Shown here: piece by piece, positions 170 through 11,135 of the stretch
How positions within the stretch are numbered: position 1 is the stretch's first letter
Layout of the letters: each line of letters begins with the position of its first letter
Source of the DNA: a virus
Taxonomy: Duplodnaviria; Heunggongvirae; Uroviricota; Caudoviricetes
Virus record (IMG/VR): IMGVR_UViG_3300010965_000004
Location: 1-44,707 of that record
DNA length: 44,707 nucleotides
Strand: one strand, 5' to 3'
The notes under the pieces: model-generated
What the model was told of the DNA's origin: nothing
Database searches by the model: none
What the model saw: the letters and a program-made list of their open reading frames with translations, nothing else
Program-made: the position numbers and the translations under genes

Positions 170-1804
170 CTATCCATAGATATCCACGCTCTGTTCCAAG
201 TATTGAGACCCTGGATGTTCCATAAGTTGGTCTATCAGGTTATATTGACCGGTGGCACAGTACCACGCTATGTGAGCAAAGACTACAGAGTGTAGCCAGT
301 CATCACAGTCAGTCTCTTCTTTACGATATAGCTTACGACCAGTATGTGACTCTTCTTCATACACATTGAGAGCATCCTCCCAGAACGTACTCATCAGATT
401 CCAGGATGGAGTTTCAAATCTATCCTTACCCATCTTCATCTTCAAGATGGCCATGTCCATACACATAGTTCTATCAGCCGCTAAGTAACCACCTGGTTGG
501 TCGTATCTCAACATAGTTTTGGCAGCACAGTATTGGATCGGTATTACCATATGGTATCCTAAAGTTTGTTTCAGTAGCTCAAACTGTAGTTGCCCAACCC
601 CTCGGTCACTGCCTACCATCTGAACCTTGAACTGACGAGCCAAGTGTTCAACTCTTCTAACTTGATCAAGGATATCAATACCATTCAAACGTTCTGAGTG
701 TAGAACATAGGCTTTGCCCATGTAATCACACCCAAGTATAGTGATGACAGTATATGAAGCCGCCCCTGCCGTTACTGACCAGTCTACTCCTAACACACAC
801 GAGGTTATACCACGTTGATCTACGGGCCAGGTATTATCAAAAGCTTCTACCCCGGTGTTACAACAAGCAATTGCTTCACGTTGAGACAGGATACGACCAG
901 CTACGCCAGCAGCCAGGCCAAAGACTTCGTTAGCTAACAAGGAGGGTTTATAGGTTTCTATCTTGCTGTGTATCTCATCCCATTTAAATGGGGTTATACG
1001 AGCTGGGATGATAAAACGTGGTACATGAAACCCGTAGTGATTCTTTACTGTAGGCTTAGCTGCAACCCATCTGCCGGTTTTCATATCTATAGGTTTTGCA
1101 CAATGAACACATATAGGCCCATCCTTGCCTTTACAGATATTCAGACAGTCTTCGAACGTCCAGGGTATTGTCCACTTGCCGCAGTGAGTACACTTAACGC
1201 ACCACTCAAGTCCATTGCTTTTCTTGAACAATGTTTCCAGCGTGTTCTGTTCTGTTTTAGCTGTACCGAAGTGTTTGACCCAGCCATATGGAGAAGCCGA
1301 AAGAGCTTCTGCTACAATTGGTAGAGTAGAAGCTTGAATGTCTTGTACTTCGTCGAAGTAACAAACGTCGCCTGGAATTCCTCTGACTCGGTCAGCGTCT
1401 GCTTCGGTTTCAGCATAAGACAGATATATGATTGACCCATTATTAAGCGTTTTCTCAAACACGTTCTTCTTCGAAGACGAATCTCTAAAGTGTTTCCTGA
1501 CCATAGGCGACATCAAGAATGGATCTAGATACGAAGTTGAGAACCTGGAACTCTGTGTTGATAGTGGAGCTATATAGATGGACGTTAAGTGAGGAATGGC
1601 TATACTCTTAAGGGTAAGAATAGCCCCTACCCCAAGTGTTTTTCCAATCTGTCGACTAGCTTTAACCGTAAGAAATTGCGGATCGCAATCATACACGTCC
1701 CTCATGGGGATGTAATCGTCCATAGTAAGAGGTTTTCCTTTTAGGCTGATAACCGCTTTAGCTAGTTCTGAGGTTGTTACTCTTACTGTGGTTGTTTCGT
1801 CCAT
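170..1804 (-). CDS. terL: Terminase large subunit
   Basis: Walker A-like KASRQIGKT, Walker B CYFDEVQD, two CxxC pairs (CTHC, CVHC), RNase H-like nuclease acidic motifs GVDW, SDRG, DDWLHS. Confidence 0.9.
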   Translation of the reverse strand: MDETTTVRVTTSELAKAVISLKGKPLTMDDYIPMRDVYDCDPQFLTVKASRQIGKTLGVGAILTLKSIAIPHLTSIYIAPLSTQSSRFSTSYLDPFLMSPMVRKHFRDSSSKKNVFEKTLNNGSIIYLSYAETEADADRVRGIPGDVCYFDEVQDIQASTLPIVAEALSASPYGWVKHFGTAKTEQNTLETLFKKSNGLEWCVKCTHCGKWTIPWTFEDCLNICKGKDGPICVHCAKPIDMKTGRWVAAKPTVKNHYGFHVPRFIIPARITPFKWDEIHSKIETYKPSLLANEVFGLAAGVAGRILSQREAIACCNTGVEAFDNTWPVDQRGITSCVLGVDWSVTAGAASYTVITILGCDYMGKAYVLHSERLNGIDILDQVRRVEHLARQFKVQMVGSDRGVGQLQFELLKQTLGYHMVIPIQYCAAKTMLRYDQPGGYLAADRTMCMDMAILKMKMGKDRFETPSWNLMSTFWEDALNVYEEESHTGRKLYRKEETDCDDWLHSVVFAHIAWYCATGQYNLIDQLMEHPGSQYLEQSVDIYG

Positions 1805-1898
1805 TTATACTTTCTTCTGATTAGGTGATGATAATAGGTTCCGATATATTTCTATACTTTTTAATATCTTCTGTCATTTTAAATAATTTCCTAAAAGC

Positions 1899-1907
1899 TG
1901 GTATAAT
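1899..1907 (+). promoter_or_regulatory. Extended -10 promoter (TGGTATAAT), plus-strand cassette class
   Basis: TGnTATAAT consensus in an intergenic divergent region; the motif recurs before most plus-strand units. Confidence 0.7.
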
Positions 1908-2011
1908 ACCAATGGAGGAGATTTATTCTCCTTAATAATATATTATTATAACACTTTTTAGATTATTTTGATATATATTTTTTAACTTACCTTTAGCTAA
2001 GGAAAACTAAT

Positions 2012-2206
2012 ATGGGTAATACAATTGTTATCGTTTCAAACTCGGGCCAGGAATTTACATTACCTGGAACTCATTGGACTGCCGCTCAAGTAGCTGCAAC
2101 CTTCGCTGACAGCGTACCTGGCATCAGCGCCATGACTTCAGAAGTAACGACTGAAGATGGAAATCAGGTTATTACGTTCCGTCCGCGTACCGGAACCAAG
2201 GGCTAA
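2012..2206 (+). CDS. Ubiquitin-like beta-grasp protein (PRTRC protein C-like)
   Basis: 64 aa ending ITFRPRTGTKG, matching the TF...GTKG C-terminus of PRTRC protein C; co-located with E1, E2 and JAB; SD AAGGA. Confidence 0.8.
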   Translation: MGNTIVIVSNSGQEFTLPGTHWTAAQVAATFADSVPGISAMTSEVTTEDGNQVITFRPRTGTKG

Positions 2207-2228
2207 GTTTTTAGCCTAAAAAAATTAA

Positions 2229-2271
2229 GCAACATGGGGTTTCAATAAAGATTCTCCTTGTTGTTTTTTTT
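2229..2271 (+). terminator. Terminator-like hairpin after Ubl gene
   Basis: CAACA.GGGG / CTCC.TGTTG stem followed by a T run. Confidence 0.5.
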
Positions 2272-2341
2272 AGTTAGAACACTATTTCTAAGAGTCTTCT
2301 AGGGTTCTTAAAAATAGTGTTTAATGACTTAAAGGAAAAAC

Positions 2342-2971
2342 ATGACTGTTCAAACTAAGACAACTACTGAGTATTGGTTACTACAAAATGCTCGTATGAT
2401 TATTGGAAACATGGCTAGGGATTCCTTAGTTACCTTTTCAGTTAATAAGCTACGAGAGATAAAGCTGGTTACAAGCAATTTTAAAAATGGTTTTTCTTTT
2501 CATGATAACTATTACATGGCTGGAGAGCTTAAAAGACTATATAGATTTATGATTGCGTACATAAGTAGGGAAATACCCTTCCTGCATTTGACTCAAGCTG
2601 GGTATGAAGATGGACAAAGTTATATGAAGGTTGTAAGTCAAGGTTCAAAGCCTTACTTGAAACTTAGCCTTATGTATGATGACTCAATCTATCGATACAT
2701 TCAAAGAATAAATGGCCCTTTCGCTGCTTTAGACTTACCCTTTAGGATAGAGATACAATCCTATAAACCAACCGATAATATGTCTGTTTTCTTCTATACG
2801 GATATTAATAACCAGCCCAAAGCATTACAAACGTACAAATTGTTGCTTCTCTTACCTGAGATAGTAACAGTATTAAAAACTCTAAGTAGGAAAGCTAGGT
2901 ACACAAATGAGCAATTTAGAACCTGTTCTAGATCTACCTGTTCTGGTTTCGAAACTCCGACAGCAGCCTGA
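2342..2971 (+). CDS. Hypothetical protein in Ubl cassette
   Basis: 209-aa ORF with AAGGA SD; no recognised motif. Confidence 0.7.
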   Translation: MTVQTKTTTEYWLLQNARMIIGNMARDSLVTFSVNKLREIKLVTSNFKNGFSFHDNYYMAGELKRLYRFMIAYISREIPFLHLTQAGYEDGQSYMKVVSQGSKPYLKLSLMYDDSIYRYIQRINGPFAALDLPFRIEIQSYKPTDNMSVFFYTDINNQPKALQTYKLLLLLPEIVTVLKTLSRKARYTNEQFRTCSRSTCSGFETPTAA

Positions 2972-3164
2972 TGTAACAGAGAATATAAAAGGTAAGATAA
3001 TAAGCTTACTGACTATTCCTCAAACGTCCGAGGAAATTGATGTTTTTATCCAGGCTATCGTTGACCCTAAAGTTGTGTACCCTATCATAACTTTATCCAA
3101 AGCGGATGTGGGTATAAAGAAAGCCAAGTTTTTTATTAATGAAGGAGACATAGATTATGTCTGA
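2907..3164 (+). CDS. Hypothetical protein in Ubl cassette
   Basis: 85-aa ORF whose end overlaps the E2 start, suggesting coupling. Confidence 0.65.
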   Translation: MSNLEPVLDLPVLVSKLRQQPDVTENIKGKIISLLTIPQTSEEIDVFIQAIVDPKVVYPIITLSKADVGIKKAKFFINEGDIDYV

Positions 3165-3966
3165 AGTATTGGAATTAACGGAAGTAACAGAAACTGCAAC
3201 TACAGAGTCAACTACTAGAGCTCAAGAAGTTGAAGCCAGGCTACAAAGCTTAATTGATACTTCTGTTGCTTCAATGCCTGATGATACAATTGAATCTCAG
3301 CCTTTCGTCTTGTATCCTAATTATGTTGAACTCAAGCTTGGCAAGTTGAGTAAGAACATTTCTTTGCTAGATTTCAAAGGTATTCTAGATACTCTATTGC
3401 AAGCTGAAACCAAACTTGTGATGAACGCTCTTCCATATAACTGTTTCGTGTTTGCCAAGTCAAATACCGAAATGAGACTAAGCTGTTATCACCCTGAAAA
3501 GATGATGGAGATAACCCATGCTTATGATGGGTATTCAACTGTAACAGATAAGTATACGATTCCTTTTCCCAATACAATTATAACCTTTAAGTTAGGGTTG
3601 GATTCTGGGCTTTGGAAAATTCAAGACGTAAAGTACTTTTGTACAAATAAGAAGGTTACTCAGCTGCCAGAAGATACGATAATTACTGAGCCTAACTACG
3701 CTGAAGGCATTTGGACCATGCCGTTCCCTAACTATTATGGAGATGGAAGAATGTGTTATGGGAGAAACACCATGCCAACTACCTTCACCAATAACCTTAG
3801 AGGATTAGATTATTATTACCAGGTTATCTTCGGATCTCCGTTTAATAATGATCTTGGTATTGGTTCTACTGAGCAAAGAATTGATCCTAAGAATTGGTTC
3901 AAGAAACTGTCTAAATTAACTGAATTCCCATATGACGAACTGAAGAAGTCAGGTCATCGTTATTAA
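3157..3966 (+). CDS. Prokaryotic E2-like (Prok-E2, PRTRC protein B-like) conjugating enzyme
   Basis: MPFPNYYGDGRMCYGRN with candidate catalytic Cys, and IFGSPFNNDL. Confidence 0.8.
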   Translation: MSEVLELTEVTETATTESTTRAQEVEARLQSLIDTSVASMPDDTIESQPFVLYPNYVELKLGKLSKNISLLDFKGILDTLLQAETKLVMNALPYNCFVFAKSNTEMRLSCYHPEKMMEITHAYDGYSTVTDKYTIPFPNTIITFKLGLDSGLWKIQDVKYFCTNKKVTQLPEDTIITEPNYAEGIWTMPFPNYYGDGRMCYGRNTMPTTFTNNLRGLDYYYQVIFGSPFNNDLGIGSTEQRIDPKNWFKKLSKLTEFPYDELKKSGHRY

Positions 3967-3984
3967 TTCCTATTGGAGAAAAAA

Positions 3985-5124
3985 ATGCAAGAACTCGTTC
4001 CTTTTATTTCATGTTTAGTAACTCCGAATGAGTTTCAGGAAGCATTGCTTTCTACTTATTCAGAGATTTATGTTGACTCTCACGATGGCTATCTAAAGCA
4101 TATGAAGCTTCGTGGTGGTCGTCATATTCGTTTGAAAGTAGATGCTCTGCCTAAAAATGCAGTTGCTGTTACTTCCAACAGAGTGGAGGAAGAAATCAAC
4201 TTCCTCCCAGCCGGTAAGATCTCGTATGAGTACTTCGAACAAATCCTACACTTCTTTAAAGAAGTAATGCGTTTGAAGAATGCAGATTATGAAGCTCATG
4301 CCTGGATCCTTTGGAGCCTAGAAAAGGGTTATTATATCTCTGTTCCTAAACAAACAGTAAGCAAAGCTTCTGTCCAGTTTAGTTACGATGAGGAGACTCT
4401 GCCTCCGGATAGCACTATCGTTGTTGATTTACACAGTCATAACACGATGGGAGCTTTCTACTCAGGTACAGATAACAACAACGATAAAAACGGAATTTAT
4501 TATTCTGGCGTTATTGGTAAGCTTGACACTCCGAATCCACAATTTGTGTTCCGCTTTAACATGCATGACGTTAAACGAGACTGCAAACTGGCAGATGTCT
4601 TTGATATTCCAAAAAAAGAAGTAACAATCCCTACTGACTGGCTGGATAAGGTAGAAGTGAAGGCCACGACTCCAACGTATGTTCCCCCACAAAATTATCG
4701 TCGTGGTCCATCTCTCTGGGATCAAAAGGTACATGATATAACAAGGGACCCTCAGGAATATCGTAGAGCTCTAGGGTATGACTCGAGAATAGGTGCTGGT
4801 CGTTGTGAACTTGCTGATTTGATTGATGATCAAGTTGCCGAGTTAAATGAACAGGCTGAACGGCACTTTGGTATTGCAATTGATTCTGATGATGTAGACC
4901 CGGTGGGCCCTATCATTGGGGCTGAAGATGATGCAGAGCATAGTGAAGACTATGATTACTACTGTGTTACTTATGGTAAAGAGGCTGCTGACGCAAAAGA
5001 TATGATTGATGCTTGTGTGGATAACCTGGCTGAATGCGATGAAGGTCTTCTGGATGTTATCCGGTCTGCCTACGATCTCTTAAGTGAGAAAGGTCAGCAA
5101 GAGCTTATGACCAACGGGCTGTAG
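3985..5124 (+). CDS. JAB/MPN+ metallopeptidase (PRTRC protein A-like) with acidic C-terminal extension
   Basis: YEAH...DLHSHNTMGAFYSGTDNNND fits the JAMM E-HxH-S-D motif; ATG 3985 preferred over TTG 3973 because of the GGAG SD. Confidence 0.85.
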   Translation: MQELVPFISCLVTPNEFQEALLSTYSEIYVDSHDGYLKHMKLRGGRHIRLKVDALPKNAVAVTSNRVEEEINFLPAGKISYEYFEQILHFFKEVMRLKNADYEAHAWILWSLEKGYYISVPKQTVSKASVQFSYDEETLPPDSTIVVDLHSHNTMGAFYSGTDNNNDKNGIYYSGVIGKLDTPNPQFVFRFNMHDVKRDCKLADVFDIPKKEVTIPTDWLDKVEVKATTPTYVPPQNYRRGPSLWDQKVHDITRDPQEYRRALGYDSRIGAGRCELADLIDDQVAELNEQAERHFGIAIDSDDVDPVGPIIGAEDDAEHSEDYDYYCVTYGKEAADAKDMIDACVDNLAECDEGLLDVIRSAYDLLSEKGQQELMTNGL

Positions 5125-5143
5125 TCTATTTTTTGTTAAGTGA

Positions 5144-5152
5144 TGGTATAAG
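5144..5152 (+). promoter_or_regulatory. Extended -10 promoter (TGGTATAAG)
   Basis: Recurrent motif upstream of the E1 gene. Confidence 0.6.
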
Positions 5153-5182
5153 AGGGGTGAGAGCAATCTCACCTCTTTTTTT
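5150..5182 (+). terminator. Intrinsic terminator after JAB gene
   Basis: AAGAGGGGTGAGA-GCAA-TCTCACCTCTT hairpin plus T run. Confidence 0.7.
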
Positions 5183-5197
5183 AATTTTGGAGAAAGT

Positions 5198-6358
5198 ATG
5201 TTTGCATACAGACCACATTTTGTTCCAACCAAGATATTGATTATTGGGTGCGGAGGTACTGGATCTAGAATCGTTCCTCTCTTGGCTCAATTTATAAAAA
5301 CGTGTTCCTGGGTTAAAGACCCTGAAATAACTCTTATTGACGACGATTTCGTTGAGGAGAAAAATCTTTTAAGACAGAACTTTATCTCTGTTGATGTAGG
5401 AAAGCCAAAAGCCGAAGTGTTAGCTTTGCGATATTCCAGGGCATTTAACGTTACAATAAACGCTTTGCAAGCGAGAGTGACTGACCCTTATAAGAGTAGT
5501 ATTTTAGAATCCAATGATCCTGAAATACGAAATGCATTCATGAGGCACATTGCTAATGCTATTATTATTCTCTGTGTGGATTCCCCTCAAGCTAGACGAG
5601 ATATTATTAGGGCCATGACTTACTGCGGAGTTGGCAATAGGGGATCAGTTCTTCTGCTGGATTCTGGCAATGAAAATGATTTTGGTCAGGTTTCGTTGTC
5701 TACCTTCTCAGCTATAAACGAGGAAGAAATCTACCAATTAAATGAGATGCCTAATGCTATTCCTGGGGAGATTATTATTCCAGGGATTCCAATGGAAGTG
5801 GATTACTTCGAGAAGATGGTAGCTACCACTACTCTTAGTTGTGCTGATCTGGATCAAACAATGGCTATCAACACTATGATGGCTGTTACCATGTTTGGTA
5901 TCATTCAAAACTTCTATTATGCCAAGTTGATTACTTATAACCGCATAAACATTTCTCTGTCTCATGGTTCTATTCCTCAATACATGAACACAGACTTTAT
6001 AAAGAAGTCGCTTTCTTATGCTCAGAAGAAGATAGACAGATATACTCTCTTCAGGTTTCATGTAGGGGAAGTAATTTCTGAGTTCTATTATAAAGAATAC
6101 CTGCCTTTTAAAGAAGCAATGGTAGAGGCTGAGCGGAAGAGAATAAGCCAGGAATCTATCCCTGCCGAGGTTAAAGAAGCGCCGGCAAAGTCCGAATCGG
6201 TGCCAAAGAAAAAGGTAAAGAAGATAGACTACGAAGAATCCCTTAAGATTATTGAAGAAGGAGGCCCCCCTTCAACTTTAAATGGCTCTGCCTTTGCAGT
6301 TAATCTTAACTATGTTGTTCACCCGGCTTCTTATATAGTGTCTTCTCACACAGTCTGA
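5198..6358 (+). CDS. ThiF/E1-like Ubl-activating enzyme
   Basis: IIGCGGTGS nucleotide-binding loop, DDDFVEEKNLLRQNF, CVDS..AR, DSGN, candidate catalytic Cys in LSCA. Confidence 0.9.
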   Translation: MFAYRPHFVPTKILIIGCGGTGSRIVPLLAQFIKTCSWVKDPEITLIDDDFVEEKNLLRQNFISVDVGKPKAEVLALRYSRAFNVTINALQARVTDPYKSSILESNDPEIRNAFMRHIANAIIILCVDSPQARRDIIRAMTYCGVGNRGSVLLLDSGNENDFGQVSLSTFSAINEEEIYQLNEMPNAIPGEIIIPGIPMEVDYFEKMVATTTLSCADLDQTMAINTMMAVTMFGIIQNFYYAKLITYNRINISLSHGSIPQYMNTDFIKKSLSYAQKKIDRYTLFRFHVGEVISEFYYKEYLPFKEAMVEAERKRISQESIPAEVKEAPAKSESVPKKKVKKIDYEESLKIIEEGGPPSTLNGSAFAVNLNYVVHPASYIVSSHTV

Positions 6359-6362
6359 CAAC

Positions 6363-6394
6363 AAAAAGCCCAGTTTAATACCTGGGCTTTTTTT
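6363..6394. terminator. Bidirectional intrinsic terminator
   Basis: AAAAAGCCCAG...CTGGGCTTTTTTT between convergent genes. Confidence 0.85.
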
Positions 6395-6409
6395 AGTTCG
6401 TCTACCTCT

Positions 6410-6820
6410 TTAGGAGACTCGTTCCCTCGAAGCTTCCGTAACCGTGTCAATAACATTGTAGGTAGCAAGGACACTAGTGTCAGATTTGTACAAAGTTAGC
6501 ACCCCAGTTAACTTATTCCATATCCAGGATCCCAAAGCCTCGTCAGAAAGGTCCTTCACGGTAGCTGCAAGCGTCTTGGTTGAGACATCGACACGAATCT
6601 GGAGTGCCCCCTCAATAAAGATGTCCAAATGCCCTGTAGAGCTCGGCGTGAAGTTCATGGTGTAAACTCCACCACCAATCTCGGTAAAAGTCGGGGCAGG
6701 AGCTAGAGTTGTGATAACTCCATCCACAAGAGCCACGACTCCAGGGAACACCACTTTGCCAGTTGTTAAACCGGTAGAGAGGAAAACTTGTTTAGTTGGT
6801 TGGTTGACTGTGATTTCCAC
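6410..6820 (-). CDS. Hypothetical, probably structural beta-rich protein
   Basis: 136-aa ORF rich in T/V/G on the late strand. Confidence 0.65.
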   Translation of the reverse strand: MEITVNQPTKQVFLSTGLTTGKVVFPGVVALVDGVITTLAPAPTFTEIGGGVYTMNFTPSSTGHLDIFIEGALQIRVDVSTKTLAATVKDLSDEALGSWIWNKLTGVLTLYKSDTSVLATYNVIDTVTEASRERVS

Positions 6821-7313
6821 TTATATATTCCTTGATTGCTAATTCTTTATTCTTCATATCCTGATCGGTGGCTCCCGGTACTAGTCCTGTGATTCCTACT
6901 ATATTAAAAGGCCAGATTGTGTGTGAATACCCATCTTCTACTAATATGTCTTTTAGTGCCAGTCTTATTCCTAGATCGTAGTGATCAGCTTGTTCTGGCA
7001 GTATGCCTTGGAAGTCAGCCATCTCTACAATAGCTTTGGCAGCTTCTAGGGAGTTGATGTGGGGGATACTGGTAAAGTCAGTAACGTTGTTGTTTATAAC
7101 TTCACATGCATGTAAGAAAAAGATCACATCCGAATAAAACAGTTCAGGTTTGTAGTGTAAGACTTTGATTAGATTGATCTTCTCTGACAGCAGTTCTGAA
7201 TAAGGAAGTTGTAGTTCCAAGAATATTGTCTCGGTCTCATACGACTGCCAGCCTACGGGTAGAACGCTGGAGAGATACTTATTAAGAGCGGCTATTGGTA
7301 AAGTTGGGTGCAT
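6792..7313 (-). CDS. Hypothetical protein
   Basis: 173-aa ORF with TAATG overlap with the upstream ORF. Confidence 0.7.
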   Translation of the reverse strand: MHPTLPIAALNKYLSSVLPVGWQSYETETIFLELQLPYSELLSEKINLIKVLHYKPELFYSDVIFFLHACEVINNNVTDFTSIPHINSLEAAKAIVEMADFQGILPEQADHYDLGIRLALKDILVEDGYSHTIWPFNIVGITGLVPGATDQDMKNKELAIKEYISGNHSQPTN

Positions 7314-7489
7314 TAAAATTTCTTGGCTATTGTTTCAGGTTTATCTTTTTGTAATCTCACGGTTCCATTAACAGCGAATGAGTCATGTTTCAACTGCTTT
7401 GCGGGATTAGTTGTTAGCATTGTCTTAACGTTGGTCTCACCAATAGGCACGGATTTCATTTCAGCGATTTTGGAGAGGTAACGGTTCAT
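7313..7489 (-). CDS. Small protein with N-terminal NRYLSKIA tag (absent from ORF track)
   Basis: Hand translation MNRYLSKIAEMKSVPIGETNVKTML...AKKF*, 58 aa, stop/start overlaps on both sides. Confidence 0.75.
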   Translation of the reverse strand: MNRYLSKIAEMKSVPIGETNVKTMLTTNPAKQLKHDSFAVNGTVRLQKDKPETIAKKF

Positions 7490-7671
7490 TAAAACTTGCC
7501 TGTGTCAACCCATTTTCCTGGGATCTTAGCTGCGTGTTTAAAACTGTTTGAGAGAGATTCTTTAACAGCAGTGGAGTTAGCTACAGGTTTTTTAATTGTC
7601 TTAGACGCTTTGCCAGTAACTTTACTCAGCACGTCTTTTAATCCAGCAATCTTTTCTAAGTACTTGTTCAT
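7489..7671 (-). CDS. Small basic protein with NKYLEKIA tag
   Basis: Begins MNKYLEKIAG; coupled to neighbours. Confidence 0.8.
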   Translation of the reverse strand: MNKYLEKIAGLKDVLSKVTGKASKTIKKPVANSTAVKESLSNSFKHAAKIPGKWVDTGKF

Positions 7672-8578: not shown

Positions 8579-9088
8579 TTATAACTCTAGAAGCCTATTA
8601 GACTTTCTACTGTTTTCTAGTGCGGAAATAATTCTTAAATTATTCTCTACATGAAGTCCACAAACATTTTTACCCTGTAGAGGAATTATATGATCTACAT
8701 GATGTTTTATACCAGTTTCTAGACTTATTTTATTACTCTCTTCATATATTTTTTTGATTTGTTCTAAATTTGCCCATTTGGGAATAGCCTGTAATTTAGA
8801 GGTGCGTCTTTTAGCAGTTATAGCATTTGCTTTACCGGGATTTTTTAGTCTCCAGTCTTTGGTATTCTCTTTATCCCGTGCACGTTTTTTTTCTCTGGCA
8901 TTAGGATTAGAAATATACTTATGATACTTTTCTCGTTCCTGCTCTCTATGTTCTGCGTTATATTTTCGCAAATAGATATTCATACAATTTCTACATGCAG
9001 AATTATATCCAGACTTCAGATGGTTATTTGGCCCAAATTCTGCAATAGCCTTTAAAGTTTTACAGCGAGTACAAACTTTCTCTTTCAT
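8579..9088 (-). mobile_element. Free-standing HNH endonuclease (paralog 1)
   Basis: N-terminal CxxC...CxxC, C-terminal HHVDHIIPLQGKNVCGLHVENNL. Confidence 0.85.
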
Positions 9089-9637: not shown

Positions 9638-10524
9638 ATCGTGTCTATACTTCCATCGGCGTAGCCGTTATATCTAGCTGATCTTATCTGACTAGCGGTT
9701 GGGGTCATGCAAATTATTTGAACTAGCTTACCGATTTTAGTCTTTTTGTTTTTCCAAAAGTCTTGTCTATCTTCATAGGTAAATCCAGTACCAACTTTTC
9801 CTACATTTCTTCCTGACCCGTCTTCTAATGCTAAAGCCCCCATTGAATCTTTAGGGTTTCCATTTTTATCAAACTCTTGTAGTACATCAGCTATTTTAAG
9901 ATTATACGTTTGTAAATGTTTAATCTTGATTCTATAATTTTCTGATTCTGGTTTGGTAAGGCTAGTAACTACAACACCTTCCCTTCCTTGTAGTTTAGTT
10001 TCCTCAAGGAGTTTGTTTATAGCATCTTTATTCTGTACAAAAGTAGGGGTAAACAGAAGGTTGGAATCTCCAAAAGCTTGCTCTACCATTCTTAAATGTT
10101 CTATTTTTTCGGCATAAGTATTAAGAGCAGGAGTCTTAACATCTATTAGTACTCCACGTATGGGCCCAGTTAATTTTTGAGTAGATAAGGCTTTAGGGGG
10201 CAAAGAATTTAGTATTCCAGAAAGTGCTGGGTGAGATTCAAATGCATCTTCCCCCGTATTATGACCAGTATGTATCAATTCCAAGCTATAAACATTATTT
10301 GCTAATTGTGGAATCTTTTTAACCAAATGAGGAAGTTTAATTGTTCTGTCGGGATAGGTTCCTGTCACGGATTCACGTCTAGATACGTAAGAAGGATTAC
10401 CTTCAGAATCAAAGGATAAAACGAAATGTGCACCATCTTTTTTGACGCTAGCCACAGGATTTTCTACTCCGTCAAATGAGGGTAACTCTTTATATTTAGC
10501 TCGTTCATAAGTTGACATGTCCAT
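9634..10524 (-). CDS. lig: ATP-dependent DNA ligase (minimal)
   Basis: Motif I KxDG (VKKDGAHF), EGVVV, KIK, and OB-fold GKVGTGFT. Confidence 0.88.
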   Translation of the reverse strand: MDMSTYERAKYKELPSFDGVENPVASVKKDGAHFVLSFDSEGNPSYVSRRESVTGTYPDRTIKLPHLVKKIPQLANNVYSLELIHTGHNTGEDAFESHPALSGILNSLPPKALSTQKLTGPIRGVLIDVKTPALNTYAEKIEHLRMVEQAFGDSNLLFTPTFVQNKDAINKLLEETKLQGREGVVVTSLTKPESENYRIKIKHLQTYNLKIADVLQEFDKNGNPKDSMGALALEDGSGRNVGKVGTGFTYEDRQDFWKNKKTKIGKLVQIICMTPTASQIRSARYNGYADGSIDTI

Positions 10525-11135
10525 TATAATAACTCTTCCATAAATTTATTGTTCTTAGATAAATTTTCACTAGTAGGTATTATACGTAAGTTTGTTTCAA
10601 CATGCAATCCAGTAACAGTTTTTCCTTTTAAAGGAATTATATGATCTACTTGATGGGGTACGCCAGTCATTTCTGATATTAATTTACAGTCAATATATAT
10701 TTGTTTTATAACTTCTAAATTAGCCCAAGAAGGAGTTGCACTTTTTTTAATAGATCTCCTTTTAGCACTAACTGCAGCTTGTAGAGGTAGGAAGGTCTCT
10801 CTATTTCTTTCTCGGTATTGTCGAACATACTCCGCTCCTTGTCCTGGCTTACTTCTTAAGTATTCTCTGTTTTTTTTATTTATTATTTCAGAATTTTCTT
10901 TCCTATGCTTTCTGCGGGAAAGTAGTAACTTTTCCTTGTTAGCTTTTTTATACTCTTTTCTTTTCTCTAAGCATATATTCCTGTTTTTAGTATAGTAGTT
11001 ATGAGTTCTGATTTTGTCACAGACTTTACATTTTTGGTCTAACCCAAATAAGCCTTTAGCTTGCTTATGGAATCCAGAAAATTCTTTTTCTGTTCCACAT
11101 TTACTACAAACTTTAGTCTTAACTTCTTTAGTCAT
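10524..11135 (-). mobile_element. Free-standing HNH endonuclease (paralog 2)
   Basis: CSKC...CKVC plus HQVDHIIPLKGKTVTGLHVETNL. Confidence 0.85.

What the first reader, a model, noticed from the sequence alone, without database searches (positions are those of the whole stretch)
1899..6394. Complete ubiquitin-like conjugation cassette (Ubl, E2, JAB, E1) in a virulent-type phage
Seen: a self-contained promoter-to-terminator unit encoding a GTKG-ending beta-grasp protein, an E2-like protein with a candidate catalytic Cys, a JAMM peptidase and a ThiF/E1. Known: this matches the PRTRC gene set, whose function is uncharacterised; bacterial Bil systems conjugate Ubls to phage tail fibres as defence. 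Inference: the phage may tag host or virion proteins, or reverse or compete with host Ubl defences. The Ubl already ends in Gly, so JAB probably deconjugates rather than matures it.
Basis: partly seen in the sequence, partly recalled or inferred. Interest (0 to 1): 0.72.

Follow-up and report, generated by a model that had tools for sequence, protein, structure and literature searches.

The report
Phage-borne ubiquitin-like tagging cassette
A whole lineage of large lytic phages carries, next to its DNA-packaging gene, a six-gene kit for attaching and removing a small ubiquitin-like protein; in some relatives that protein is encoded as a head-to-tail chain like eukaryotic polyubiquitin, and what the kit tags is still unknown.

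Summary
Window 2012-6358 (+) encodes a 64-aa Ubl ending GTKG, a Prok-E2_D protein with an invariant Cys, a JAMM peptidase with the full motif, and a ThiF-type E1. All best HMM matches are to PRTRC/"6D" models, and the E2, JAB and ThiF Pfam matches pass their thresholds.

New here:
- **Six genes, not four.** Two fast-evolving genes of no known family, X (209 aa) and Y (85 aa), always sit between the Ubl and the E2.
- **Fixed in a clade.** All 35 viral loci with TerL at least about 45% identical and enough flank have the cassette beside TerL. Two further genomes hold it 10-15 kb away. Complete genomes with a more distant TerL lack it. Salmonella phage Arash and Vibrio phages D69, D181 and D148 have it.
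- **Poly-Ubl precursors.** About a third of relatives encode the Ubl as 2, 3 or 5 units, or with a C-terminal tail. Every unit ends G[TNA]KG, so a peptidase, most likely the JAB, must also mature it.
- **No ParB** in four complete genomes.
- **Not one plain unit.** There are hairpins after the Ubl and before E1, and a second promoter-like motif.

Most likely this is a working, phage-autonomous Ubl conjugation and deconjugation pathway. It is a diverged, ParB-less PRTRC relative. The target is unknown and nothing has been shown biochemically.

The parts
1878..1907 (+). Promoter-like site, TTTAAA-18-TATAAT with an upstream TG (extended -10, TGGTATAAT)
   Evidence: Consensus scan. The motif TGGTATAATA with up to 1 mismatch occurs 14 times in the window against 4.0 expected, reached by 0 of 100 shuffles. 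TGGTATAA-type motifs lie 79-167 nt upstream of the Ubl start in all 15 related loci checked. This is a consensus match only; function is not shown.
2012..2206 (+). Ubl: 64-aa Prok_Ub/PRTRC-C-like protein ending RTGTKG-stop
   Evidence: T4, F56, G61, K63 and G64 are invariant across 21 units. The beta-grasp fold was not modelled here.
2216..2273 (+). Terminator-like or attenuator hairpin followed by a T run, directly after the Ubl gene
   Evidence: RNA fold -19.6 kcal/mol, z -4.45, matched by 0 of 200 shuffles. An attenuator role that keeps the Ubl in excess over the enzymes is inference.
2342..2971 (+). X: 209-aa protein of no known family, at the position of PRTRC protein F
   Evidence: A positional homologue of 199-325 aa is present in 18 loci. 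The family has 210 clusters in 1.84 billion proteins. There are no Pfam, NCBIfam or PHROG hits. The AF2 model has pLDDT 76.5 and an alpha/beta fold with no clear match.
2907..3164 (+). Y: 85-aa protein of no known family. It overlaps the end of X and the start of E2, and its C-terminal ..(E/D)DFV tail is conserved.
   Evidence: No family hit.
3157..3966 (+). E2: 269-aa Prok-E2_D protein with candidate catalytic Cys200. Cys110 is also invariant.
   Evidence: Pfam 29.1 bits, above the cut-off of 25. 23-sequence alignment. AF2 model pLDDT 84.9. About 30 of the top 50 VIA-align rows are E2, UEV or RWD folds, but the best Z is only 4.9.
3973..5124 (+). JAB/JAMM metallopeptidase, 383 aa from the TTG start. 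ATG 3985 (MQELVPFISC...) fits the relatives' N-termini better. It has an N-terminal alpha+beta region and a long variable C-terminal extension ending in a conserved helical part.
   Evidence: Prok-JAB 33.8 bits, above 25. PRTRC_A 81.3 bits (cut-off 101.8). E107, H154, H156, S164 and D167 are invariant.
5144..5179 (+). Second TGGTATAAGA promoter-like motif (5144-5153), overlapping a 13-bp terminator-like hairpin (5150-5179) in the JAB-E1 gap
   Evidence: The same motif lies upstream of E1 in 5 of 13 relatives. In several relatives small ORFs are inserted in this gap.
5198..6358 (+). E1: 386-aa ThiF-type adenylating enzyme (core about residues 1-260) with a low-complexity C-terminal extension. 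C215 in SCADLDQT is the candidate thioester Cys.
   Evidence: ThiF 57 bits. PRTRC_ThiF 88.2 bits (cut-off 144.75). Invariant residues. Best solved relatives by sequence are NEDD8-E1 UBA3, E about 1e-6.
6363..6394 (.). Terminator hairpin with A and T runs on either side, between the convergent E1 and 6410-6820(-) genes
   Evidence: RNA fold -16.2 kcal/mol, z -4.83. Sequence.

Best explanation
The cassette is a phage-autonomous pathway for conjugating and removing a ubiquitin-like protein. It is a diverged, ParB-less relative of the bacterial PRTRC / '6D' systems, inherited vertically in the clade of roughly 165-190 kb Arash-like phages.

Proposed mechanism (all steps inferred from sequence; none shown biochemically):
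1. The Ubl is made in excess over the enzymes, through its own hairpin after the gene and, in relatives, through 2-5 tandem units.
2. Where it is made as a poly-Ubl or with a tail, the JAMM peptidase cuts after ...G-x-K-G to expose the C-terminal Gly. In this window the gene already ends there.
3. The ThiF-type E1 adenylates Gly64 and probably takes the Ubl on Cys215.
4. The Ubl passes to Cys200 of the Prok-E2_D protein.
5. The E2 transfers it to lysines of target proteins, possibly with the clade-specific proteins X and Y as specificity or scaffolding factors.
6. The JAB also removes it again.

The target is not known. I lean equally to abundant phage proteins (virion or assembly) and to conserved host proteins, about 40% each. 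The cassette is fixed across phages of very different hosts, and the demand for Ubl looks stoichiometric.
For: - Family matches: Prok-E2_D, Prok-JAB and ThiF score above the Pfam thresholds. The best NCBIfam matches are PRTRC B, A and ThiF.
- Ubl homology: the Ubl profile matches PRTRC protein C at 94% probability, E 1.3e-7. The G-x-K-G end is shared: Novosphingobium ...AVGTKG-stop, and Cupriavidus ...AGAKG plus 5 aa.
- Gene order: Ubl-X-Y-E2-JAB-E1 parallels PRTRC C-F-B-A-ThiF.
- Catalytic residues are invariant. E2: Cys200 in an HPN-like FPN...GxMC context. JAB: the complete E...HxH...S..D motif. E1: nucleotide loop, Arg, Asp128 and Cys215.
- E2 fold: the AF2 model (pLDDT 84.9) draws mostly E2, UEV and RWD folds, including the bacterial CdnG-E2 and BubB.
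- Precursors: single ORFs hold 2 units (L008-L011, L013, L025, L026, L082, L083, L089), 3 units (Vibrio phage D69) or 5 units (L028). Tails of 1-23 aa occur. Every unit ends G[TNA]KG.
- Precedent for JAB processing of Ubl pre-proteins: the BubCD JAB cleaves the BubAB pre-protein (PMC11601596).
- Fixation in the clade: 35 of 35 loci with TerL at least about 45% identical and enough flank carry Ubl, E2, JAB and E1 beside TerL. Two more genomes have it displaced.
- Constraint on the active site: in five loci a homing group I intron sits exactly inside the JAMM motif codons (HSH|NTM), a typical target for such introns.
- Expression: the Arash homologues of E1 and E2 (and, by the paper's table, of JAB and others) were detected as proteins by LC-MS/MS (PMC10585845).
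Against: - No biochemical or genetic data exist for this cassette or for any PRTRC system (PMC13366799).
- The Ubl fold was not modelled, and its direct Pfam match is below threshold.
- E2 structural matches are weak: Z at most 4.9, and nothing from Foldseek.
- The His said to be absolutely conserved after the Cys in 6D E2s is absent here.
- All NCBIfam PRTRC scores are below the curated cut-offs.
- That the JAB, rather than a host protease, cuts the precursors is inferred.
- Internal units of a poly-Ubl might stay uncleaved as a multi-domain Ubl.
- The target and the timing of expression are unknown.
Confidence: 0.68

Rival explanations
1. Dedicated counter-defence. The cassette exists to neutralise host ubiquitin-like immunity (Bil, Bub, type II CBASS) or other defences. 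It could strip host Ubl or cGAS conjugates with the JAB, flood or compete with host enzymes, or tag defence proteins.
For: - Bacterial Ubl systems act in anti-phage immunity, and Bil tags a phage tail protein (as summarised in PMC11601596).
- X and Y evolve fast: mean column identity is 22-30%, against 35-47% for the enzymes and the Ubl.
- In a Phocaeicola prophage a diversity-generating retroelement diversifies PRTRC protein B, which suggests an arms-race interface on the E2 (bioRxiv 10.64898/2026.10.01.756045).
Against: - The cassette is fixed at one locus throughout the clade, including phages of Salmonella and of Vibrio and many environmental contigs. Anti-defence genes are usually patchy.
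- A deconjugase alone would be enough to reverse host tagging, yet E1, E2 and the Ubl are all conserved with intact catalytic residues.
- PADLOC was not searched and host genomes are unknown.
Confidence: 0.14
2. Sulfur-carrier system. The Ubl is thiocarboxylated by the ThiF-type enzyme and donates sulfur to a cofactor, tRNA or nucleotide modification, as ThiS, MoaD and TtuB do, rather than being conjugated to proteins.
For: - The E1 matches ThiF and MoeB models at E 1e-7 to 1e-11.
- The Ubl is small, of ThiS/MoaD size, with a C-terminal Gly.
Against: - An E2-fold protein with an invariant active-site-like Cys and a JAMM peptidase are conserved with it.
- The E1 shows only the ThiF match, with no rhodanese domain, and no cysteine desulfurase or sulfurtransferase gene lies in the cassette.
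- The best family matches are PRTRC, not ThiF/MoeB equivalogs.
- Tandem Ubl precursors are not a feature of sulfur carriers, to my knowledge.
Confidence: 0.05
3. Partition or maintenance module, as PRTRC is often annotated ('ParB/ThiF partitioning cassette'), or an otherwise non-catalytic relic carried along with the terminase region.
For: PRTRC on plasmids, ICEs and a temperate Burkholderia prophage lies beside a ParB-family gene and has been called a partitioning cassette (PMC13366799).
Against: - No ParB or ParB_N match in this contig, Arash, D69 or two 100%-complete IMG/VR genomes.
- There is no sign of lysogeny or plasmid maintenance in Arash.
- All catalytic motifs are invariant over a clade whose TerL has diverged to about 45% identity. 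That is purifying selection, not a relic.
Confidence: 0.04

Closest known systems
PRTRC system (ParB-related, ThiF-related cassette; NCBIfam TIGR03734-03742), which is operon type 6d of Iyer, Burroughs & Aravind 2006 (PMC1779556)
   Same: - Ubl with a G-x-K-G end, with or without a short tail.
- Prok-E2_D-type E2 with a Cys and without the canonical HPN His.
- JAMM peptidase with an extra N-terminal region, and a short ThiF-type E1.
- Identical order: Ubl, variable protein(s), E2, JAB, E1.
- Function unknown in both.
   Different: - No ParB, and no detectable E, D or F proteins.
- All scores are below the NCBIfam cut-offs.
- The conserved His after the E2 Cys is missing. An invariant Asn lies one position earlier.
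- The JAB and E1 carry long C-terminal extensions.
- Two clade-specific genes, X and Y.
- Poly-Ubl precursors.
- Carried by large lytic phages at a fixed locus beside TerL, not by plasmids, ICEs or temperate prophages.
Bil systems (BilABCD, bacterial ISG15-like anti-phage defence)
   Same: Separate Ubl, E2, JAB/JAMM peptidase and E1 genes, with Cys-based chemistry expected. No E3 gene, so the E2 may pick the targets itself (PMC11601596).
   Different: [quoted passage not shown] Here there is one ThiF core of about 260 aa.
- The Bil Ubl resembles ISG15 in structure (PMC11601596). Here each unit is a single small domain of 61-74 aa.
- Bil is a host defence against phage. This cassette is encoded by the phage.
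Bub systems (6E/DUF6527)
   Same: A Ubl, E2, E1 and JAB combination. A JAB domain cleaves a Ubl-containing pre-protein. Multi-domain Ubls occur (PMC11601596; Iyer 2006 row 6e).
   Different: - Bub works through Ser and Tyr oxyesters and lacks catalytic Cys. Here the Cys are invariant.
- There is no DUF6527 protein among the six products.
- Bub's multi-domain Ubls are not described there as strings of units that each end in the reactive motif.
Eukaryotic polyubiquitin genes (UBB, UBC, UBI4), from general knowledge
   Same: Head-to-tail units in one ORF, each ending in the reactive C-terminal motif. The last unit is sometimes followed by one or a few extra residues. A dedicated peptidase is needed to release monomers.
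   Different: The Ubl family is unrelated at the sequence level (Prok_Ub type, ending TKG rather than RGG). Some relatives have 10-50-aa linkers between units. A JAMM enzyme encoded in the same cassette is the presumed processing enzyme. The arrangement probably arose independently.

Membership tests
PRTRC system (NCBIfam) | ThiF-family protein reaching the TIGR03736 cut-off (144.75 bits) | tested here: not met
   88.2 bits, E 5e-25. It is the best NCBIfam match but below the cut-off.
PRTRC system (NCBIfam) | Protein A (JAB) reaching the TIGR03735 cut-off (101.8 bits) | tested here: not met
   81.3 bits, E 6.5e-23. It matches only the C-terminal 100 positions of the model.
PRTRC system (NCBIfam) | Protein B (E2) reaching the TIGR03737 cut-off (131.45 bits) | tested here: not met
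   20 bits, E 3.6e-4. hhalign against three PRTRC_B sequences gives E 0.018, with the Cys aligned.
PRTRC system (NCBIfam) | Protein C (Ubl, TIGR03738) | tested here: inconclusive
   No NCBIfam hit at E up to 0.1. The clade profile against three PRTRC_C sequences gives 94.1% probability, E 1.3e-7, with a shared G-x-K-G end.
PRTRC system (NCBIfam) | PRTRC ParB-family protein (TIGR03734) | tested here: not met
   No TIGR03734 or ParB_N (PF02195) match in this contig, Arash, D69 or two 100%-complete IMG/VR genomes.
PRTRC system (NCBIfam) | Proteins E and F (and D) | tested here: not met
   No NCBIfam hit for X or Y, for 18 X homologues, or for 10 distant X relatives. hhalign X against F gives E 0.12-0.45, and Y against E gives E 0.7. 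X occupies F's position.
PRTRC system (NCBIfam) | Gene order C-F-B-A-ThiF | tested here: met
   Ubl-X-Y-E2-JAB-E1 in the window and in all relatives, against pHG1, the C. oxalaticus plasmid and pLA4.
6D operon (Iyer 2006) / Pfam Prok-E2_D | E2-fold protein above the Prok-E2_D gathering score, with a conserved Cys and no canonical HPN His | tested here: met
   29.1 bits, above 25. Cys200 is invariant, and the motif reads FPN, not HPN.
6D operon (Iyer 2006) / Pfam Prok-E2_D | Absolutely conserved His C-terminal to the catalytic Cys | tested here: not met
   No invariant His anywhere in the 23-sequence alignment. The PRTRC_B His aligns with variable position 205, next to invariant Asn204.
6D operon (Iyer 2006) / Pfam Prok-E2_D | JAB with a full JAMM motif and an extra N-terminal alpha+beta domain with conserved Arg and Trp | tested here: inconclusive
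   The JAMM motif is complete and invariant. About 100 N-terminal residues include invariant R50. The only invariant Trp (W223) lies after the JAB core.
6D operon (Iyer 2006) / Pfam Prok-E2_D | Rapidly diverging alpha-helical protein with conserved charged residues | tested here: inconclusive
   X diverges rapidly and keeps P79, R118, Y119, T180 and R183. Its model is alpha/beta, and no homology to PRTRC_F was found.
Ubiquitin-like beta-grasp fold (Prok_Ub, PF14454) | Beta-grasp fold with a reactive C-terminal Gly | tested here: inconclusive
   C-terminal Gly is invariant. Prok_Ub is hit at E 0.011 (16 bits, below 25), and only 3 of 21 units hit at E up to 0.1. No solved relative by sequence.
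Bil (BilABCD) | [quoted passage not shown] | tested here: not met
   One ThiF match, at residues 11-140 of a core of about 260 aa, followed by a low-complexity tail. Bil definition from PMC11601596.
Bub (6E/DUF6527) | No catalytic Cys (Ser on E2, Tyr on E1) and a DUF6527 serine protease | tested here: not met
   Cys200 (E2) and Cys215 (E1) are invariant. No DUF6527 hit among the six products.
Type II CBASS Cap2/Cap3 | Fused E2-E1 protein that conjugates a CD-NTase, with no separate Ubl | tested here: not met
   E2 and E1 are separate genes and a dedicated Ubl gene is present. Only a weak E1-domain match to a cap2_3 model, E 4.3e-8 and far below its cut-off.

The most novel reading that the evidence does not exclude
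A clade of large lytic phages runs its own complete ubiquitin-like modification cycle as a core part of infection. The parts are a poly-Ubl precursor, a JAMM processing and deconjugating enzyme, an E1, an E2 and two private specificity factors. It would stoichiometrically tag abundant targets, such as its own virion or assembly proteins or conserved host machinery. That would be the first functional virus-encoded E1-E2-DUB-Ubl pathway in bacteriophages. It would also be the first assigned function for the PRTRC/6D family and an independent invention of the polyubiquitin gene layout.
Probability: 0.45. Interest if true: 0.85.

Novelty: new variant of a known kind. Interest (0 to 1): 0.68.

Why it matters
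**What is known.** Ubiquitin-like conjugation in bacteria has so far been given functions only on the host side, as anti-phage defence: Bil, and Cap2 of type II CBASS. Bub is a proven conjugation pathway without a known role. The PRTRC/6D family, known since 2006, still has no function. The library search found it recorded in phages only in temperate prophages.

**What this adds.** A diverged version is a fixed, vertically inherited module of a whole lineage of large lytic phages. Four members are in culture: Salmonella phage Arash and Vibrio phages D69, D181 and D148. This turns 'what does a PRTRC-type system do?' into a tractable question in a laboratory phage-host pair.

**Poly-Ubl precursors.** They give direct sequence-level evidence that the Ubl is released by cleavage after ...KG and used in quantity. 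They also offer a prokaryotic-virus parallel to eukaryotic polyubiquitin genes.

**If the target is a virion protein,** this would be a new kind of phage particle modification. **If it is a host protein,** it would be a new mode of host takeover.

Tried and rejected
The contexts of the 27 metagenome E2 homologues could not be read, so IMG/VR loci were used instead.

**Searches that found nothing**
- DNA-level search of the cassette against 50,697 phage records: no match.
- Single-sequence E1 scan of viral contigs: no relative. Alignment-based scans worked.
- Sequence search of the PDB with the E2, JAB and Ubl profiles: nothing usable.
- Foldseek of the E2 model against the PDB: no match at E up to 0.001.

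**X and Y**
- X against PRTRC_F and Y against PRTRC_E by hhalign: no significant similarity.
- NCBIfam scans of 18 X homologues and 10 distant X relatives: no PRTRC hit.
- X model: Foldseek found nothing. VIA-align reached Z at most 5.4, to generic alpha/beta sandwiches.
- The Atlas and low Foldseek ranks hint at a YbjN, CesT or SycN-like chaperone fold, TM 0.42-0.56. This is too weak to claim.
- Y in the Atlas: no usable hit.
- Complex prediction, E2 (residues 45-269) with Y: no answer (score 0.12, mark 0.32). It is not evidence either way.

**Expression**
- The look-up of sequencing runs: no RNA holder listed. Only the probable source sample holds the DNA.

**Readings considered and rejected**
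- Arash 'structural protein' labels as evidence that the enzymes are in the virion. Rejected because 116 of 272 proteins were detected, including ribonucleotide reductases and kinases, and no gradient purification is described. I take the data only as evidence that the proteins are made.
- Timing class from the promoter motif. Rejected because similar extended -10-like motifs face both strands in the TerL-Ubl gap.
- Poly-Ubl as an assembly artefact. Rejected because the same di-Ubl ORFs recur in contigs from different samples, and in L082 and L083 the two units differ in sequence.

Full report
**1. What is in the sequence**

Between the divergently transcribed large terminase gene (170-1804, minus strand; PHROG 675, E 6e-53) and a convergent block of minus-strand genes lie six plus-strand ORFs:
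- Ubl, 2012-2206, 64 aa, ending RTGTKG.
- X, 2342-2971, 209 aa.
- Y, 2907-3164, 85 aa.
- E2, 3157-3966, 269 aa.
- JAB, 3973-5124, 383 aa.
- E1, 5198-6358, 386 aa.

Pfam places three of them above its gathering scores: Prok-E2_D (29.1 against 25), Prok-JAB (33.8 against 25) and ThiF (57 against 28.1). The Ubl touches Prok_Ub only weakly (E 0.011). In NCBIfam the best hits for E2, JAB and E1 are the PRTRC models B, A and ThiF, all below the curated cut-offs. X and Y match nothing in Pfam, NCBIfam or PHROGs.

**2. Transcription signals**

- The right end coincides with a hairpin plus T run at 6363-6394 (z -4.8).
- Two further strong hairpins followed by T runs lie inside the unit. One is right after the Ubl gene (2216-2273, z -4.45). 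The other is in the JAB-E1 gap (5150-5179, z -4.1).
- The 10-mer TGGTATAATA, allowing one mismatch, occurs 14 times in the window against 4 expected, a count reached by 0 of 100 shuffles. The sites include 5144, just before E1, and the starts of other plus-strand units.
- A TGGTATAA motif lies 79-167 nt upstream of the Ubl in all 15 related loci examined, and upstream of E1 in 5 of 13.

I read this as a conserved promoter type, with a possible attenuator that keeps the Ubl in excess, and a partly independent E1 unit. These are consensus matches only. No RNA data were available, and the temporal class cannot be told.

**3. The phage and its relatives**

The window is the first 44.7 kb of a 108.7-kb IMG/VR contig estimated at 61% complete. 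By TerL and by E1, the nearest isolated phages are Salmonella phage Arash (180.8 kb) and Vibrio phages D69, D181 and D148 (about 187 kb). They are the only 4 of 50,697 phage records with this E2.

The E2 has 27 homologues in a 5.8-billion-protein collection, nearly all of them unnamed metagenome proteins. Among 185,579 species genomes there is one hit, on a 3.2-kb contig of an uncultured bin. The clade therefore looks exclusively viral. Arash is reported to have no lysogeny genes.

An E2-profile scan gave 25 viral loci and a TerL-profile scan gave 75. The results were:
- Every locus with TerL at least about 45% identical and enough upstream flank (35 loci) carries Ubl, E2, JAB and E1 directly beside TerL, in the same order and orientation.
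- In one complete 192.7-kb genome the cassette sits about 10 kb away. In one 172-kb contig it sits about 15 kb away.
- Complete genomes of similar size whose TerL is 39% identical or less lack both E2 and E1.

The cassette is thus a fixed, vertically inherited character of one clade.

**4. A six-gene cassette in PRTRC order**

In all relatives a 199-325-aa gene (X) and an 80-96-aa gene (Y) lie between the Ubl and the E2. Y overlaps the end of X and the start of E2.
- X evolves fast, with mean column identity 22-26%. It keeps P79, R118, Y119, T180 and R183 and a C-terminal helix (KVxxTLSRK).
- Y keeps an N-terminal helix and a C-terminal acidic ...EDFV tail.

On Cupriavidus necator pHG1 and a C. 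oxalaticus plasmid the PRTRC genes run ParB-E-C(Ubl)-F-B(E2)-A(JAB)-ThiF. On Novosphingobium pLA4 the F slot holds two unannotated genes. The phage order Ubl-X-Y-E2-JAB-E1 is therefore the PRTRC order, with X in the F slot.

No sequence similarity between X and F, or between Y and E, could be shown. ParB is absent from this contig, Arash, D69 and two 100%-complete IMG/VR genomes.

The X family numbers 210 clusters at 50% identity in 1.84 billion proteins. Its AF2 model (pLDDT 76.5) has no convincing fold match. Weak echoes of YbjN and type III chaperone folds are a lead only.

**5. The enzymes look active**

*E2.* Across 23 homologues Cys200 is invariant within PFPNxYxxGxMCYGxN. This lines up with PPYFNTWDHGKICIGSAHVP of PRTRC protein B, and it resembles the HPN...C arrangement of canonical E2s with Phe in place of His. 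Iyer et al. describe exactly this loss of the canonical His for operon type 6d. They also describe an absolutely conserved His after the Cys. That His is not present in the phage clade, where an invariant Asn204 lies one position earlier. A second Cys (C110) is also invariant. The AF2 model (pLDDT 84.9) finds nothing by Foldseek. By exhaustive structural alignment about 30 of the top 50 rows are E2, UEV or RWD folds covering residues 88-265, including the bacterial CdnG-E2 and BubB, but the best Z is only 4.9. Together with the Pfam hit this supports a UBC-like fold.

*JAB.* E107, H154-S-H156, S164 and D167 are invariant, which is the full JAMM motif. The protein has about 100 extra N-terminal residues and a long variable C-terminal extension ending in a conserved helical part.

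*E1.* The nucleotide loop G17-x-G19-G20-T21-G22-x-R24 is invariant. So are D48, D50, K55-N-L-x-R-Q-N61, D128, D155 and Cys215 in SCADLDQT. The nearest solved relatives by sequence are NEDD8-E1 catalytic subunits.

**6. The Ubl and its precursors**

The clade profile of 21 Ubl units matches PRTRC protein C at 94% probability, E 1.3e-7. The two share the C-terminal G-x-K-G: the Novosphingobium protein ends ...AVGTKG, and the Cupriavidus proteins end ...AGAKG followed by five residues.

Within the phage clade every unit ends G[TNA]KG. About two thirds of the distinct genes stop right there, as in this window. The rest do not:
- Two head-to-tail units in one ORF: L008-L011, L013, L025 and L026, and also L082, L083 and L089.
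- Three units in Vibrio phage D69.
- Five units in L028.
- Single Ubls carrying tails of 1 to 23 residues: +C, +A, +ND, +AKR, +VCA, +INYSK, +17 and +23.

The same di-Ubl ORFs recur in contigs from different samples, and in some the two units have diverged, so they are not assembly artefacts.

The reactive-end motif is strictly kept on internal units. This is what is expected if each unit is released and used, as with eukaryotic polyubiquitin. A peptidase must then cut after ...KG. The cassette's own JAMM enzyme is the obvious candidate, and a JAB that cleaves a Ubl pre-protein has precedent in Bub (PMC11601596).

In this genome the Ubl needs no trimming, but maturation belongs to the family's repertoire.

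The beta-grasp fold itself was not modelled. It rests on homology to Prok_Ub and PRTRC_C.

**7. How it most likely works, and what is open**

The simplest reading has these steps:
1. The Ubl is produced in excess.
2. The JAB processes it where needed.
3. The E1 adenylates the C-terminal Gly and takes the Ubl on Cys215.
4. The Ubl transfers to E2 Cys200.
5. The E2 conjugates it to lysines of targets, perhaps with X and Y as specificity or scaffold factors.
6. The JAB removes it again.

None of these steps is shown.

Several observations bear on the role:
- The cassette is fixed in a clade infecting hosts as different as Salmonella and Vibrio, and the gene layout suggests demand for a lot of Ubl. 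Both argue for a core role with abundant or conserved targets.
- The fast evolution of X and Y leaves room for an arms-race role. So does a report that a diversity-generating retroelement mutates PRTRC protein B in a Phocaeicola prophage.
- Arash proteomics detected the E1 and E2 homologues and, by the paper's table, the neighbouring cassette products. But 116 of 272 proteins were detected, including metabolic enzymes, and no gradient purification is described. I count this as evidence that the proteins are made, not that they are in the virion.
- A sulfur-carrier role is unlikely given the conserved E2 and JAB. A partition role is unlikely without ParB.

**8. Comparison and novelty**

The cassette is closest to PRTRC/6D and shares its logic and order. 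It fails the curated cut-offs, lacks ParB and the E2 His, and adds X, Y, enzyme extensions and poly-Ubl precursors. It is not Bil (single-domain E1), not Bub (Cys present, no DUF6527) and not Cap2 (no fusion, own Ubl).

In the searchable literature PRTRC function is described as unstudied. Its only phage records are temperate prophages (PMC13366799; the bioRxiv preprint). I found no paper on this lytic-phage clade's cassette or on phage poly-Ubl genes. Subscription journals are not covered by that search.

I rate it a new variant of a known kind. It is of good interest because cultured phages make the function testable.

Noticed in passing
L020:9337-10463 (also L022, L044, L046 and L087): The JAB gene is split exactly inside the JAMM motif codons. 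Exon 1 ends ...VDIHSH and exon 2 begins NTMGSFFSATD. The insert is about 1.1 kb and matches the group I intron model (RF00028, 33 bits, E 3e-6, below the gathering score of 50). It carries a 293-aa LAGLIDADG endonuclease ORF on the opposite strand (Pfam LAGLIDADG_1, 29.7 bits, above 23.1).
   Followed up: partly
L001:12501-12719 (-), which is OQ632216.1 180500-180718, Arash gp251c: The annotated Arash gp251c (72 aa, hydrophobic, with no relatives) is in a different frame from the conserved Ubl ORF. The Ubl ORF is L001 12514-12714 (-), 66 aa, ending RRTGTKG. The Ubl gene of Arash therefore seems to be mis-annotated. GenBank 'structural protein' labels and the paper's Table 2 numbering also do not fully agree.
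   Followed up: partly
window 1899, 5144, 14461, 16024, 24250, 25119 and 31478 (+); 8714, 13364 and 44209 (-): A recurrent extended -10-like motif, TGGTATAA(G/T/C/A)A, occurs 14 times against 4 expected. It often lies just after a terminator-like T run and at the head of transcription units, including the retron-like RT unit and its RNA noted by others. It is probably the phage's main promoter type. Its temporal class is unknown.
   Followed up: partly
L066:1091-4249 (-) and L066:5739-7190 (-): In one divergent relative the E1 ORF is 1053 aa, with ThiF only at residues 40-126 and about 750 aa of unknown extension. The E2 ORF is 484 aa. These are expanded or fused forms of the cassette enzymes.
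   Followed up: partly
L006, L008, L011, L012 and L027, the JAB-E1 gap: In these relatives 0.5-1.0 kb with two to four small ORFs (52-97 aa) is inserted between JAB and E1. This is the same gap that in the window holds a hairpin and a second promoter-like motif.
   Followed up: no
L002:5529-6495 (Vibrio phage D69): The D69 E1 homologue is annotated as a 251-aa CDS, but the tblastn match runs further upstream (5688-6470) and a tiny 29-aa CDS is annotated there. This could be a frameshift, a sequencing error or a wrong start.
   Followed up: no
window 7313-7489 (-) and 7489-7671 (-): Two adjacent small paralogous ORFs of 58 and 60 aa both begin MN(R/K)YL.KIA. This is the N-terminal motif that another first-stage note calls a putative packaging tag. 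None of the six cassette proteins carries it.
   Followed up: no
window 8579-9088 (-) and 10524-11135 (-): Two paralogous HNH / endonuclease VII-type genes (PHROG 1035, E about 5e-22 each) flank an unknown gene and the ATP-dependent ligase gene. They are probably homing endonucleases.
   Followed up: no
L109:2849-4010 (Novosphingobium pLA4): In this bacterial PRTRC locus the protein F slot is filled by two unannotated genes of 73 and 251 aa. The slot between the Ubl and the E2 is therefore variable in bacteria too, as X and Y are in the phages.
   Followed up: no
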